Below, piece after piece: positions 4,207 to 5,437 of a DNA stretch of 7,768 nucleotides (the stretch's first letter is position 1; each line of letters opens with the position of its first letter). The stretch is from a virus (Duplodnaviria; Heunggongvirae; Uroviricota; Caudoviricetes). Below the pieces are notes generated by a model, which ran no database searches, was not told the origin of the DNA, and saw only the letters and a list, made by a program, of their open reading frames with translations. The position numbers and the translations under genes are program-made. The stretch lies in the IMG/VR virus record IMGVR_UViG_2681813154_000006; one strand, written 5' to 3'.

Positions 4207-4886
4207 ATAACCAGTATTTACAGTTTGTGCGTGAGCAGCTCATTATCGCCACCGCTGATTTGAGTGGGGCAACAAAAGGTCAGCTTGAAGCCTGGCAAGA
4301 GAATGCCATGTTCGATACAGGGCGTTACAGGCGTAAAAAAATCCGGTACCGCGATGAAGTGACTGGAAAAATGATAACGCGGGATAATCCACCAATCCCG
4401 GGAAAGCAATCGCTGGCGAAGGGGACGTCAATTCCTCTGGTCAGTCCGGTTGAGTTTTCGACATCATCGTGGCGGCGGGCTGTTCTGTCTCTTGAAGAGC
4501 ACTATAAAGCCTGGTTGTTGTGGTGTTACAGCGGGAGTATTTGTTGGGAATATCAGATCGCGATAACACAGTGGGCGTGGAATGAATTTAATGCTCAATC
4601 CGGTACCAGAAAAATTGCAGGGAAAACGCAGGAACGCCTGAAAAAATTAATCTGGCTGGCGGCGCAGGCAGTAAAAGCAGAACTTTTTGGTGGGGAAGGT
4701 TATGAATACCAGGAGCTGGCATTACTGGCGGGAGTGACAACTAAAAACTGGTCCAAAACATTTACTCGTCACTGGGTTGCAATGAAACACATTTTTCACC
4801 GACTGGATAGTGAGGCTTTATTGTTTGTAATGAGAACACGTTCAAAAAAAAGACGGCATTTTCAAAGCAAAGTGTTGCAAAAGTAG
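4203..4886 (+). CDS. putative late-gene antiterminator Q (second, longer Q-like protein)
   Basis: 227 aa from the ATG at 4203 (ORF track starts at a GTG at 4197); the ATG overlaps the rusA stop. Assignment is mainly positional: directly after rusA and directly before a promoter-plus-terminator pair and the late/lysis region. Sequence family not verified. Confidence 0.5.
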   Translation: MNNQYLQFVREQLIIATADLSGATKGQLEAWQENAMFDTGRYRRKKIRYRDEVTGKMITRDNPPIPGKQSLAKGTSIPLVSPVEFSTSSWRRAVLSLEEHYKAWLLWCYSGSICWEYQIAITQWAWNEFNAQSGTRKIAGKTQERLKKLIWLAAQAVKAELFGGEGYEYQELALLAGVTTKNWSKTFTRHWVAMKHIFHRLDSEALLFVMRTRSKKRRHFQSKVLQK

Positions 4887-4903
4887 ATTGAAAGGCATAT
4901 ATT
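4875..4903 (+). promoter_or_regulatory. pR'-like sigma70 late promoter candidate
   Basis: TTGCAA (4875-4880), 17-bp spacer, TATATT (4898-4903), overlapping the 3' end of the Q-like gene and about 55 bp upstream of a terminator. Confidence 0.45.
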
Positions 4904-4957
4904 CATGCAAATCTGATACTTTGCCGATTTTGTACGTGATGGCAAAAGCAAACAAAA

Positions 4958-4979
4958 CCCGCCCACAAGCGGGTTTTTT
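4958..4979 (+). terminator. rho-independent terminator (tR'-like) downstream of the second Q
   Basis: CCCGC-CCACAA-GCGGG hairpin followed by TTTTTT. Confidence 0.75.
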
Positions 4980-5046
4980 GTGCCACTTATCTCGGATAGA
5001 CATGGTGAATGCGCTGGTGGAGGAGATAAGGGTGATTTTTGAATGC

Positions 5047-5075
5047 TTGCAACATTGATTTCGTAACGTTATTAT
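5047..5075 (+). promoter_or_regulatory. sigma70 promoter candidate for the tRNA array
   Basis: TTGCAA (5047-5052), 17-bp spacer, TATTAT (5070-5075); the first tRNA begins at 5085, about 9 nt after the -10. Confidence 0.55.
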
Positions 5076-5084
5076 CCTGCGCCC

Positions 5085-5141
5085 GGCCCTTTAGCTCAGT
5101 GGTGAGAGCGAGCGACTCATAATCGCCAGGTCGCTGGTTCA
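5085..5141 (+). tRNA. tRNA with anticodon CAU (Ile2/lysidine type or Met), 3' end lost in an N run
   Basis: Acceptor GGCCCTT, D-arm TAGCTCAGTGGTGAGAGC, anticodon loop CTCATAA, start of T-arm GCTGGTTCA. Strongly resembles enterobacterial ileX-type tRNA. The remaining 3' half of the T-arm and the acceptor strand fall in N 5142-5151. Confidence 0.7.
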
Positions 5142-5152
5142 NNNNNNNNNNA

Positions 5153-5229
5153 CCGCCACTAGCTCATCAGGAAAGAGCGTCAACCCTTTAAGTTGAGTGT
5201 GCGAGGTTCGAGTCCCCGGTGGCGGTCCA
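5153..5229 (+). tRNA. tRNA-like gene of uncertain identity (anticodon loop CCTTTAA)
   Basis: Perfect 7-bp acceptor (CCGCCAC / GTGGCGG), D-stem GCTC/GAGC, anticodon stem TCAAC/GTTGA, T-loop TTCGAGT, 3' CCA encoded. The loop has C at position 33; canonical numbering gives anticodon UUU (Lys-like). The 5' end abuts the N run. Confidence 0.5.
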
Positions 5230-5231
5230 GT

Positions 5232-5307
5232 GCCGACTTGGCTCAGTAGGTAGAGCAACTGACTTGTAATCAGTAGGTCACCAGTTCGATTCCGGTAGTC
5301 GGCACCA
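5232..5307 (+). tRNA. tRNA-Thr (anticodon UGU)
   Basis: 76 nt cloverleaf: acceptor GCCGACT/AGTCGGC, D-arm GCTCAGTAGGTAGAGC, anticodon stem ACTGA/TCAGT with loop CTTGTAA, T-loop TTCGATT, encoded CCA. One T-stem mismatch. Confidence 0.8.
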
Positions 5308-5310
5308 TAT

Positions 5311-5385
5311 GCGGGCATCGTATAATGGCTATTACCTCAGCCTTCCAAGCTGATGATGCGGGTTCGATTCCCGCTGCCCGCTCCA
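5311..5385 (+). tRNA. tRNA-Gly (anticodon UCC)
   Basis: 75 nt cloverleaf: acceptor GCGGGCA/TGCCCGC, anticodon stem TCAGC/GCTGA with loop CTTCCAA, T-arm GCGGG-TTCGATT-CCCGC, encoded CCA. Looks very close to enterobacterial glyT from memory. Confidence 0.85.
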
Positions 5386-5391
5386 GTCAGA

Positions 5392-5437
5392 GTCTTTCAG
5401 TCTGCGATGATGGGAAATCCCGGAGTGACTGAAAGAC
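5392..5437 (+). other. perfect 11-bp inverted repeat (stem-loop) immediately 3' of the tRNA array
   Basis: GTCTTTCAGTC (5392-5402) pairs with GACTGAAAGAC (5427-5437) around a 24-nt loop; no following U-tract. Possible processing or terminator-like element. Confidence 0.4.

What the first reader, a model, noticed from the sequence alone, without database searches (positions are those of the whole stretch)
4875..5437. Promoter-driven tRNA array at the Q / late-operon junction, with no toxin cargo
Four tRNA genes (CAU, unknown, UGU Thr, UCC Gly) lie between the Q-associated terminator and the lysis genes, preceded by a good sigma70 promoter and followed by an 11-bp stem-loop. Stx-converting phages carry tRNA genes at this position followed by stxAB; here the tRNA set is different and the following interval holds only the tandem repeat. 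This looks like a toxin-less relative of that architecture, or a distinct tRNA cargo module.
Basis: partly seen in the sequence, partly recalled or inferred. Interest (0 to 1): 0.4.

Follow-up and report, generated by a model that had tools for sequence, protein, structure and literature searches.

The report
Prophage rare-codon tRNA operon
This is a real but ordinary four-tRNA gene cassette that many E. coli lambda-like prophages carry just before their lysis genes; it is a toxin-free relative of the tRNA module in Shiga-toxin phages, and its one odd feature is an atypical lysine tRNA.

Summary
Between Q/tR' and holin S lie a sigma70 promoter (5047-5075) and four head-to-tail tRNA genes: Ile2(CAU), cut by an assembly gap; an atypical Lys(UUU); Thr(UGU); and Gly(UCC). 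An 11-bp hairpin follows.

- **Prevalence:** the same cassette, annotated, occurs in 338 of 5,426 complete E. coli genomes, in several deposited phages and in many IMG/VR contigs.
- **Relation to Stx phages:** the promoter and tRNA-Ile are homologous to ileZ. The "unknown" tRNA sits on the argN scaffold but carries a rewritten anticodon arm (loop CCUUUAA, C33).
- **Host copies:** Thr and Gly are exact copies of host thrU and glyT. tyrU is precisely deleted and no host flanks are present.
- **Codon usage:** phage genes use ATA, ACA and GGA 1.6-3x more than K-12 genes. This fits rare-codon supplementation, but not for Lys.
- **Lys\*:** it lacks the PARIS AriB and P2 Old cleavage motifs, so a counter-defence role is possible but untested.
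- **Assembly caveat:** the window is a gapped scaffold mixing two prophage types, and the "tandem repeat" is overlapping contig ends.

Verdict: already known and ordinary, with low-to-moderate interest.

The parts
4197..4886 (+). Late antiterminator Q (229 aa)
   Evidence: Pfam PF06323 at E=3.7e-91; PHROG 304 Q-like.
4875..4903 (+). pR'-like late promoter (TTGCAA-17-TATATT) overlapping the Q stop codon
   Evidence: Consensus scan. Weak sub-threshold Rfam isrK/isrJ matches start at 4906/4907 and end at the terminator. This fits a short leader RNA; the assignment is inferred.
4948..4983 (+). tR'-type intrinsic terminator (CCCGC-CCACAA-GCGGG + T6)
   Evidence: Inverted repeat I2; terminator scan; conserved in relatives.
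5047..5075 (+). Sigma70 promoter of the tRNA operon. The -10 ends 9 nt before tRNA +1, followed by a G+C-rich discriminator (CCTGCGCCC).
   Evidence: Hexamers are conserved while the spacer and upstream DNA vary across 213 arrays. Shared with Stx2 phage 1717.
5085..5151 (+). tRNA-Ile2 (anticodon CAU, ileX/ileZ-like). The 5' 57 nt are present; the 3' 19 nt are replaced by a 10-N gap.
   Evidence: Alignments. 68/76 identical to K-12 ileX with a compensatory 6-67 pair. PGAP names it tRNA-Ile in complete genomes.
5153..5229 (+). Atypical tRNA-Lys(UUU), 'Lys*'. It uses the argN-family scaffold, has anticodon loop CCUUUAA (C33), an A51.C63 mismatch and discriminator U73.
   Evidence: ARAGORN. Rfam 44.4 bits. 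Homology to Stx argN(UCG) and a prophage Arg(UCU). The cloverleaf is 97.1% paired with 5 covarying pairs across the family.
5232..5307 (+). tRNA-Thr(UGU), a copy of host thrU
   Evidence: 75/76 identical to K-12 thrU. The commonest allele in relatives (71 of 104 copies) is the K-12 thrU sequence.
5311..5385 (+). tRNA-Gly(UCC), an exact copy of host glyT
   Evidence: 75/75 identical to K-12 glyT, read from the alignment. tyrU and its spacer are precisely absent.
5392..5437 (+). 11-bp perfect hairpin with a structured 24-nt loop and no U-tract
   Evidence: Present behind about 75% of related arrays; no covariation is available.
5445..5570 (+). Two further hairpins (14-bp and 9-bp stems) in the tRNA-to-S spacer
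   Evidence: Inverted repeats I1 and I6. Fold z-score -3.08 for 5383-5666.
5812..5835 (+). Weak terminator-like hairpin followed by a T-run, about 60 nt upstream of S. A duplicate lies at 5594-5617.
   Evidence: CCCGC-TTTT-GCGGG-T5CT4 in 22 relatives and a 4-bp stem in 20. Not called by the consensus scan. Role inferred.
5460..5884 (.). Apparent 218-bp x2 tandem repeat, most likely overlapping contig ends joined by a 10-N gap
   Evidence: TRF. Segments 5152-5666 and 5677-5945 overlap by 208 bp on L131. None of 77 relatives carrying the sequence has two copies.
5896..6081 (+). Class II holin S. The gap at 5946-5955 replaces 40 nt.
   Evidence: Alignment to annotated holins; annotations.
3429..3469 (+). 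Second tRNA-operon promoter (TTGCAG-17-TATTAT) plus the first 3 nt of a tRNA-Ile, cut by a gap. It belongs to the other prophage type.
   Evidence: Sequence. 100% match to complete genomes where Ile-Arg(UCU)-Thr-Gly follows.

Best explanation
This is a self-contained tRNA operon nested in the leader of a lambdoid prophage's late operon. The order is Q, pR', tR' terminator, the operon's own sigma70 promoter, four tRNAs separated by 1-3 nt, hairpins, a weak terminator, then S-R-Rz.

**Origin.** It is a mosaic relative of the Stx-phage ileZ-argN-argO module. It keeps the same promoter and tRNA-Ile2. The argN scaffold carries a new anticodon. The 3' tRNA has been replaced by exact copies of host thrU and glyT.

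**Proposed function.** Three of the four tRNAs decode codons read in E. coli only by low-copy, low-abundance tRNAs: AUA, ACA and GGA. The cassette raises the supply of these tRNAs.
- In the lysogen, expression would be constitutive from the cassette's own promoter.
- After induction, expression would be massive: Q-modified RNA polymerase reads through tR' across the array on a replicating phage genome. This is when codon-biased late genes are translated.
- RNase P cuts and 3' trimming would release the tRNAs. Each gene encodes its own CCA.

**Shown:** gene identities, homologies, promoter conservation, host origin of Thr and Gly, and the codon bias.

**Inferred:** expression, processing, and any benefit to translation.
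For: **tRNA calls and structure.**

**Position.** The cassette lies between Q and S in this window and in complete phages and genomes.

**Homology to the Stx2 1717 ileZ-argN unit, promoter included.**

**Promoter footprint.** 213 arrays.

**Cassette conservation.** pi is 0.007-0.018 within the tRNAs and 0.14-0.32 in the flanks.

**Prevalence.** 338 of 5,426 complete E. coli genomes. In pooled, capped IMG/VR scans, 86 of 205 arrays are of this type.

**Host origin.** Thr matches thrU and Gly matches glyT. tyrU and thrT, which read common codons, are excluded.

**Codon usage against 13,622 K-12 codons.**

| Codon | Window genes | PhiR47_1 |
|---|---|---|
| ATA | 3.0x | 2.0x |
| ACA | 1.9x | 1.7x |
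| GGA | 2.2x | 1.6x |

All p<=0.003. These three rank among the top seven enriched codons.

**Literature parallel.** SfI, Sf6, ST64T and P21 carry tRNAs downstream of Q, and SfI shows an ACA bias (PMC3636060).
Against: - AAA is not enriched (1.0-1.2x) and AAG only 1.5-1.9x, so supplementation does not explain the Lys tRNA.
Sister arrays carrying Arg(UCU) do serve them.
- Codon enrichment of 1.6-3x is modest, and phage genomes often show it whether or not they carry tRNAs.
- No expression or fitness data were available.
- No strong terminator separates the constitutive promoter from S.
Confidence: 0.6

Rival explanations
1. **Counter-defence.** The array, and above all Lys*, would replace host tRNAs destroyed by tRNA-cleaving defence nucleases carried by competing mobile elements. 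Candidates are PARIS AriB, P2 Old and PrrC. Translation of phage late genes would then continue.
For: [quoted passage not shown] It cuts at U36AAUC|A41, and a U39 change abolishes cleavage (PMC12409363).
- P2 Old blocks lambda by cutting ThrU at paired CNG motifs (positions 28-30 and 40-42), and it also cuts Lys (PMC12445682).
- Lys* reads U36AAGUU41 with stem UCAAC/GUUGA. It therefore lacks both the AriB site and both CNG motifs. Its argN(UCG) relative has C28AG30/C40UG42.
- Lys is the one tRNA that codon usage does not explain.
- Other lambdoid phages carry Asn(GUU) and Thr(UGU) at this position. Both are AriB targets, and the Asn tRNA was unexplained by codon bias (PMC3636060).
Against: - The Thr copy is identical to host thrU through the whole anticodon arm. 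Host tRNA-ThrU gave little or no protection against P2 Old (PMC12445682 section 40).
- The Ile and Gly anticodon arms are also host-like.
- Lys* has C33 in place of the near-universal U33, an A51.C63 T-stem mismatch and U73. Variants with U8C or a D-stem deletion are common. Its decoding competence is therefore doubtful.
- No cleavage or rescue data exist for it.
Confidence: 0.2
2. **Dead gene.** Lys* would be a decaying, non-functional derivative of an Arg(UCU)/argN-type tRNA with two anticodon-loop mutations (U33C, C35U). It would persist only because it sits inside a selected cassette, perhaps as a folded spacer that keeps RNase P processing of its neighbours efficient.
For: - It differs from the prophage-A Arg(UCU) anticodon loop only at positions 33 and 35.
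- It has the lowest Rfam score of the array, 44.4 bits.
- It has a T-stem mismatch, seen as 7 unpaired cells at pair 52-64.
- It has the highest pi of the four tRNAs, 0.0176.
- Frequent alleles carry U8C or a 1-nt D-stem deletion.
Against: - pi is still roughly ten to twenty times lower than in the flanks.
- All higher-frequency stem substitutions are C-to-U changes opposite G, which preserve pairing. Pair-breaking changes are singletons.
- Three stem pairs differ from argN(UCG) by compensatory double changes.
- The CCUUUAA loop is fixed in almost all of about 100 copies. Only position 32 varies.
Confidence: 0.3
3. **Host junction.** The region would be a junction with the host chromosome (the thrU-tyrU-glyT-thrT-tufB operon) rather than phage cargo.
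For: Thr and Gly are 75/76 and 75/75 identical to K-12 thrU and glyT. Nearly every E. coli genome matches this part of the query.
Against: - Homology to the host stops at the mature tRNA ends.
- tyrU, the 116-bp spacer, thrT, coaA and tufB are all absent.
- Both flanks are phage genes, here and in induced, sequenced phages.
Confidence: 0.02

Closest known systems
ileZ-argN-argO tRNA module of Stx-converting lambdoid phages (933W, 1717, Nil2, 2851)
   Same: - Same position downstream of Q, pR' and tR'.
- Homologous sigma70 promoter and near-identical tRNA-Ile2(CAU).
- The second tRNA uses the same scaffold.
   Different: - The second tRNA reads UUU with a CCUUUAA loop instead of UCG.
- The third gene, argO (UCU), is replaced by host-derived thrU and glyT copies.
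- Lysis genes follow instead of stxAB.
The identical cassette annotated in Escherichia phages vB_EcoS-689R5, vB_EcoM-606R7 and PhiR47_1 and in E. coli chromosomes (e.g. FDAARGOS_944)
   Same: Same four tRNAs in the same order, at 95-99% identity. Annotated as tRNA-Met/Ile, Lys, Thr and Gly.
   Different: Only in this window: an assembly gap in tRNA-Ile, an A9G change in Thr, and the apparent duplication downstream.
tRNA-Asn(GUU)/tRNA-Thr(UGU) pair downstream of Q in SfI, Sf6, ST64T and P21
   Same: Same slot in the lambdoid late-operon leader. A Thr(UGU) tRNA is present, and an ACA codon bias was reported (PMC3636060).
   Different: A different tRNA set. I did not compare the sequences, so homology of the Thr genes is untested.
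Nuclease-resistant tRNA-Lys(UUU) of phage T5 (PARIS suppressor)
   Same: A phage-borne Lys(UUU) tRNA with substitutions at positions 39-41, where AriB recognises and cuts (PMC11464382, PMC12409363).
   Different: - It sits in a temperate lambdoid prophage rather than a virulent phage with a large tRNA set.
- The scaffold derives from an Arg tRNA.
- It has C33.
- Resistance and function are untested.
Host thrU-tyrU-glyT-thrT operon
   Same: The thrU and glyT sequences are (near-)identical.
   Different: tyrU, the spacer and thrT are removed. The genes are fused with a 3-nt spacer under a phage promoter, with no host flanks.

Membership tests
tRNA (Rfam RF00005) | Cloverleaf covariance-model score above the gathering threshold (29 bits) | tested here: met
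   72.5 bits (Thr), 64.9 (Gly) and 44.4 (Lys*). The window's tRNA-Ile is cut by a gap, but ARAGORN calls the full relative sequence.
Stx-phage-type late-operon tRNA module (ileZ-argN-argO) | Lies between Q/pR'/tR' and the first late gene | tested here: met
   Same layout in complete relatives and in Stx2 1717.
Stx-phage-type late-operon tRNA module (ileZ-argN-argO) | ileZ-type tRNA-Ile2(CAU) with its own upstream promoter | tested here: met
   In the four-way alignment with Stx2 1717, the -35, the -10 and most of the tRNA body are invariant. 94.6% identity to Nil2 and 2851 over this part.
Stx-phage-type late-operon tRNA module (ileZ-argN-argO) | Second and third genes are Arg tRNAs (UCG, UCU) | tested here: not met
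   The second gene has the argN scaffold but anticodon UUU. The third and fourth are Thr(UGU) and Gly(UCC).
Stx-phage-type late-operon tRNA module (ileZ-argN-argO) | stxAB immediately downstream | tested here: not met
   Holin S follows, both here and in complete relatives.
tRNA-Ile2 (lysidine type, ileX-like) | CAU anticodon on an ileX-like body. The C4-G69 and C5-G68 acceptor pairs are TilS determinants, from my own knowledge of the literature. | tested here: met
   68/76 identical to K-12 ileX. The acceptor is GGCCCUU/AAGGGCC. PGAP annotates it tRNA-Ile.
tRNA-Ile2 (lysidine type, ileX-like) | C34 converted to lysidine so that AUA is read | not testable with these tools
   Requires mass spectrometry or tRNA-seq of the modified base.
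Functional tRNA-Lys(UUU) | Canonical 7-nt anticodon loop with U33 and A37, and a fully paired cloverleaf | tested here: not met
   The loop is CCUUUAA with C33, and there is an A51.C63 mismatch. The UUU anticodon and A37 are present.
Functional tRNA-Lys(UUU) | Charged by LysRS and active in decoding | not testable with these tools
   Requires acid-gel Northern blots or charging assays.
Nuclease-resistant phage tRNA (T5 tRNA-Lys type) | Same anticodon as the targeted host tRNA, with substitutions at the nuclease recognition or cleavage site | tested here: met
   U36AAGUU41 against host U36AAUC|A41, and no CNG at 28-30 or 40-42 (compared with PMC12409363 and PMC12445682).
Nuclease-resistant phage tRNA (T5 tRNA-Lys type) | Resists cleavage and rescues growth or infection | not testable with these tools
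The Thr copy is host-identical and so is expected to be sensitive.
Host thrU-tyrU-glyT-thrT-tufB operon | Contains tyrU and thrT and is flanked by coaA and tufB | tested here: not met
Intrinsic terminator (for the 11-bp hairpin 5392-5437) | G+C-rich stem directly followed by a U-tract | tested here: not met
   The stem is followed by GUUUAAGUU. The scan does not call it.

The most novel reading that the evidence does not exclude
The argN-derived Lys* tRNA would be a working, nuclease-proof lysine tRNA. On this reading, temperate lambdoid prophages re-coded an Arg-tRNA scaffold to UUU, with an anticodon arm lacking the PARIS AriB and P2 Old cut sites. A lambdoid phage carrying it could then keep decoding Lys codons in hosts where a PARIS or P2 Old nuclease is activated. 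The Q-S tRNA slot of lambdoid phages (Lys, Thr and Asn in various phages) would then be an anti-Toprim-nuclease locus as much as a codon-supplement locus.
Probability: 0.15. Interest if true: 0.6.

Novelty: already known. Interest (0 to 1): 0.25.

Why it matters
As a feature it is ordinary. tRNA cassettes at the Q-S junction of lambdoid prophages are annotated in hundreds of E. coli genomes and were described for Stx phages in the 1990s.

Three modest points may be useful.

1. **How the cargo is built.** Only the host's rare-codon tRNAs (thrU, glyT) were copied, with tyrU removed base-precisely. They were grafted onto the Stx-type ileZ promoter unit.
2. **One scaffold, three anticodons.** The same tRNA scaffold circulates with UCG, UCU and UUU anticodons. 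This is a natural case of anticodon switching.
3. **A testable candidate.** The UUU version lacks the sites used by PARIS and P2 Old, two defences that target tRNA-Lys and tRNA-Thr, one of which (P2 Old) restricts phage lambda. It is a cheap, testable candidate for a temperate-phage counter-defence tRNA.

The case also shows that N-gapped scaffolds of multi-prophage genomes can create false tandem repeats and chimeric gene orders.

Tried and rejected
- **Host chromosomal junction.** Rejected: no host flanks, and tyrU and thrT are absent.
- **Real 218-bp tandem duplication.** Rejected as most likely overlapping contig ends. A gap sits at the junction, the two segments overlap by 208 bp on L131, and none of 77 relatives carrying the sequence has two copies.
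- **The 11-bp hairpin as the operon terminator.** Rejected: it has no U-tract and is not called by the scan. No covariation was available to test it as a structured RNA, because relatives are nearly identical.
- **Known RNA families in the spacer.** None above threshold. Only weak isrK/isrJ hits lie on the pR' leader, and the reverse-strand 'Plastid-ycf2' hits are mirror images of the tRNAs.
- **Thr and Gly as nuclease-resistant variants.** Rejected: their anticodon arms are host-identical, and host ThrU does not rescue P2 Old toxicity.
- **Literature searches that found nothing.** 'ileZ argN argO' gave 0 papers. 'prophage-encoded tRNA' gave 0. The thrU/glyT/ileX plus prophage search gave nothing relevant. 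The supplement search of the Old paper for the Lys* sequence found no files held.
- **orf209 (6085-6714) as hidden toxin cargo.** No Pfam hit, and only unknown-function PHROGs. There is no evidence for a toxin.
- **Array-type frequencies from IMG/VR.** They are biased and only indicative.
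Full report
**1. What is in the sequence**

The window encodes a lambdoid replication and nin region followed by a late-regulation and lysis region.

| Coordinates | Feature | Basis |
|---|---|---|
| 10-2345 | DnaC-like and DnaB-like genes | |
| 2691-2894 | NinH-like protein | annotated 'protein ninH' in FDAARGOS_944 |
| 2851-3267 | Q-family gene | PF06530 |
| 3499-3840 | DUF968 fragment | |
| 3841-4206 | RusA | |
| 4197-4886 | Second, unrelated Q | PF06323 |
| 5896-6081 | Holin S | |
| 6085-6714 | Unknown 209-aa ORF | |
| 6780-7313 | Lysozyme | |
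| 7295-7724 | Rz/Rz1 | |

Between the second Q and S lie these elements:

- A pR'-like promoter overlaps the Q stop codon (4875-4903).
- A canonical terminator follows (4948-4983).
- A second promoter, TTGCAA-17-TATTAT (5047-5075), ends 9 nt before a run of four tRNA genes separated by only 1-3 nt.
- ARAGORN and Rfam call Lys(UUU) 5153-5229, Thr(UGU) 5232-5307 and Gly(UCC) 5311-5385.
- The first gene (CAU) starts at 5085. The tools miss it only because a 10-N run (5142-5151) stands in for its last 19 nt. The complete 76-nt gene is present in every relative.
It is the first of three stable hairpins in the spacer.

**2. The window is a gapped scaffold of two prophages**

The four N runs do not preserve length. 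Ten N replace 19 nt in tRNA-Ile and 40 nt in S.

I compared the five segments with the complete genome of E. coli FDAARGOS_944.

| Window segment | Best match |
|---|---|
| 1-3469 | 'prophage A' (L130), 99.6% |
| 3480-5141 | 'prophage B' (L131), 99.7% |
| 5152-5666 | prophage B, 98.8% |
| 5677-5945 | prophage B, 99.6% |
| 5956-7768 | prophage A lysis cassette, 96.5% |

- Prophages A and B lie about 250 kb apart in that genome.
- Segment 1 stops 3 nt into prophage A's own tRNA-Ile, just after a second copy of the tRNA promoter (3429-3457).
- Segments 3 and 4 overlap by 208 bp on L131. This is exactly the '218-bp tandem repeat' found by TRF.
- None of 77 IMG/VR relatives carrying that sequence has two copies.

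I conclude that the repeat, and the A|B|A gene order, are most likely scaffolding artefacts at repeated prophage sequence. The tRNA array itself (segments 2 to 4) is contiguous in complete genomes and induced phages, so the finding survives.

**3. How common it is**

- The 4850-5900 interval is at least 80% covered in 338 of 5,426 complete E. coli genomes, where PGAP annotates tRNA-Ile, Lys, Thr and Gly.
- The same cassette is in Escherichia phages vB_EcoS-689R5, vB_EcoM-606R7 and PhiR47_1.
- Two capped IMG/VR scans, pooled and therefore biased, gave these array types among 205 arrays:
  - 86 Ile-Lys\*-Thr-Gly
  - 60 Ile-Arg(UCG)-Arg(UCU), the Stx type
  - 27 Ile-Arg(UCU)
  - 11 Ile-Lys\*-Arg(UCU)
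  - 6 Ile-Arg(UCU)-Thr-Gly
- Across 83 arrays, nucleotide diversity is 0.007-0.018 inside the four tRNAs and 0.14-0.32 in the flanks.
- The cassette sits behind at least two unrelated Q families.

It behaves as a portable module.

**4. Where the parts come from**

- **Promoter and tRNA-Ile.** They are near-identical to the ileZ unit of Stx phages. The tRNA is 68/76 identical to K-12 ileX, with a compensatory 6-67 change.
- **Promoter as a phylogenetic footprint.** In 213 arrays the -35 is TTGCAA, TTGCAG or TTGCGG, and TATTAT is the -10 in all but one of the upstream variants listed. The 17-nt spacer and the upstream DNA differ.
- **Thr.** It equals host thrU (75/76 here). The commonest allele in relatives (71 of 104 copies) is the K-12 thrU sequence.
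- **Gly.** It equals host glyT (75/75).
- **The host operon.** It is thrU-tyrU-glyT-thrT. In the phage, tyrU and its spacer are removed to leave a 3-nt joint, thrT is absent, and homology stops at the mature tRNA ends.
- **The 'unknown' tRNA, here called Lys\*.** It shares a scaffold with Stx argN(UCG) and with prophage A's Arg(UCU).
  - The family's cloverleaf is 97.1% paired across 25 distinct sequences, with five covarying pairs. Slid controls pair at 29-54%.
  - Its anticodon arm is UCAAC-CCUUUAA-GUUGA. This is the Arg(UCU) arm with U33C and C35U.
  - Relative to argN(UCG) it also has compensatory 27-43 and 30-40 changes.
  - It carries C33, an A51.C63 mismatch and U73.

**5. Function**

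*Codon usage.* I used annotated genes of this window and of PhiR47_1, against 41 K-12 genes (13,622 codons).

| Codon | Enrichment in phage genes |
|---|---|
| ATA | 2.0-3.0x |
| ACA | 1.7-1.9x |
| GGA | 1.6-2.2x |
| AAA | 1.0-1.2x |
| AAG | 1.5-1.9x |
| AGA, AGG | 4-8x |

ATA, ACA and GGA are all significant at p<=0.003. Three of the four tRNAs therefore match enriched codons. In E. coli these codons are read only by low-copy, low-abundance tRNAs (ileX/ileY, thrU, glyT; my own knowledge). The tRNAs excluded from the captured host operon (tyrU, thrT) read common codons.

This supports the classical supplementation model. That model has also been invoked for tRNAs downstream of Q in SfI, Sf6, ST64T and P21 (PMC3636060).

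*Mechanism (inferred).*
- The cassette's own promoter gives expression in the lysogen. Its G+C-rich discriminator resembles stable-RNA promoters.
- After induction, Q-modified polymerase from pR' reads through tR' and the array.
- RNase P cleavage at each 5' end, plus 3' trimming, releases the CCA-encoding tRNAs.
- A weak hairpin with a T-run about 60 nt upstream of S may limit read-through into the lysis genes in lysogens. Its form is CCCGC-UUUU-GCGGG-U5CU4 in about half of relatives and weaker here. The consensus scan does not call it.

**6. The Lys\* question**

Codon usage does not explain a Lys tRNA. Recent work offers another lead.

[quoted passage not shown] A U39 change abolishes cutting, and T5 escapes with variant tRNAs (PMC11464382, PMC12409363).
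- P2 Old stops lambda by cutting ThrU at paired CNG motifs, and it also nicks Lys (PMC12445682).
- Lys\* reads U36AAGUU41 and has no CNG at 28-30 or 40-42. Its argN(UCG) relative has both motifs. By sequence, Lys\* should escape both nucleases.

Against a general counter-defence role:

- The Thr copy is host-identical, and host ThrU gave little or no protection against Old.
- C33, the T-stem mismatch and the common U8C or D-stem-deletion alleles make Lys\* a doubtful decoder.

For some constraint on Lys\*:

- Its diversity is far below that of the flanks.
- All frequent stem changes keep pairing, and pair-breaking changes are singletons.

I rate supplementation as the best account of the cassette (0.6). 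I rate Lys\* as a pseudogene-like passenger at 0.3, and as a counter-defence tRNA at 0.15-0.2.

**7. Comparison and verdict**

The cassette works like, and is homologous to, the Stx-phage ileZ-argN-argO module. It is not a full member of that module: the second anticodon differs, argO is replaced, and stx is absent. The very same cassette is already annotated in many genomes and phage records.

- **Novelty:** already known.
- **Interest:** low to moderate (0.25), resting on the host-derived thrU/glyT graft and on the anticodon-switched Lys\* scaffold as a cheap test case for counter-defence tRNAs in temperate phages.

Noticed in passing
window 3470-3479, 5142-5151, 5667-5676, 5946-5955: The four 10-N runs are gaps of unknown length: they replace 19 nt and 40 nt where this can be checked. 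The five segments between them match two different prophages that lie about 250 kb apart in a complete genome. The gene order in the window is probably chimeric.
   Followed up: yes
window 2851-3469: A second, unrelated Q-family gene (PF06530, 138 aa) has its own terminator (3355-3383) and its own tRNA-type promoter (TTGCAG-17-TATTAT, 3429-3457). It ends 3 nt into a tRNA-Ile. In complete genomes an Ile-Arg(UCU)-Thr-Gly array follows.
   Followed up: yes
L130 5946-6022; L005 3131-3207; window 5153-5229: One tRNA scaffold circulates in E. coli prophages with three different anticodons: UCG, UCU and UUU. The stem changes between them are compensatory. This is a natural case of anticodon switching.
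   Followed up: partly
window 6085-6714: A 209-aa ORF sits between holin and lysozyme, where relatives carry a YdfR-family gene of roughly half that length. It has no Pfam hit and matches only unknown-function PHROGs (phrog_1085). Its counterpart in FDAARGOS_944 is annotated as frameshifted.
   Followed up: partly
window 5882-5890 / 5937-5945: A 9-bp inverted repeat pairs the S Shine-Dalgarno sequence (GCGGAGGTG) with codons inside S. It resembles the structure that controls S translation starts in lambda.
   Followed up: no
window 4906-4979: Weak, sub-threshold Rfam matches to the Salmonella prophage sRNAs isrK and isrJ cover exactly the stretch from the presumed pR' start to the terminator. 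This suggests a short 6S-like leader RNA.
   Followed up: no
window 5331-5559 vs phage HK639 44463-44690: HK639 matches from the middle of tRNA-Gly through the downstream hairpins at 78.7% identity, and nothing is annotated there. It may be a remnant of a decayed array.
   Followed up: no
L003 3562-5020 (PPompW): In O157-type PPompW prophages the array is Ile-Lys*-Arg(UCU). Lys* there has a 1-nt D-stem deletion. An ISEc20 element sits where the lysis genes would be, so this cassette copy appears to be decaying.
   Followed up: no
L128 308-1352 (PhiR47_1): The complete relative PhiR47_1 carries a PanA/PanT toxin-antitoxin pair at its left end, so this phage lineage also carries defence or addiction cargo.
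   Followed up: no
window 7530-7724: An Rz1-like lipoprotein ORF is embedded out of frame inside Rz, as is usual for lambdoid spanins.
   Followed up: no
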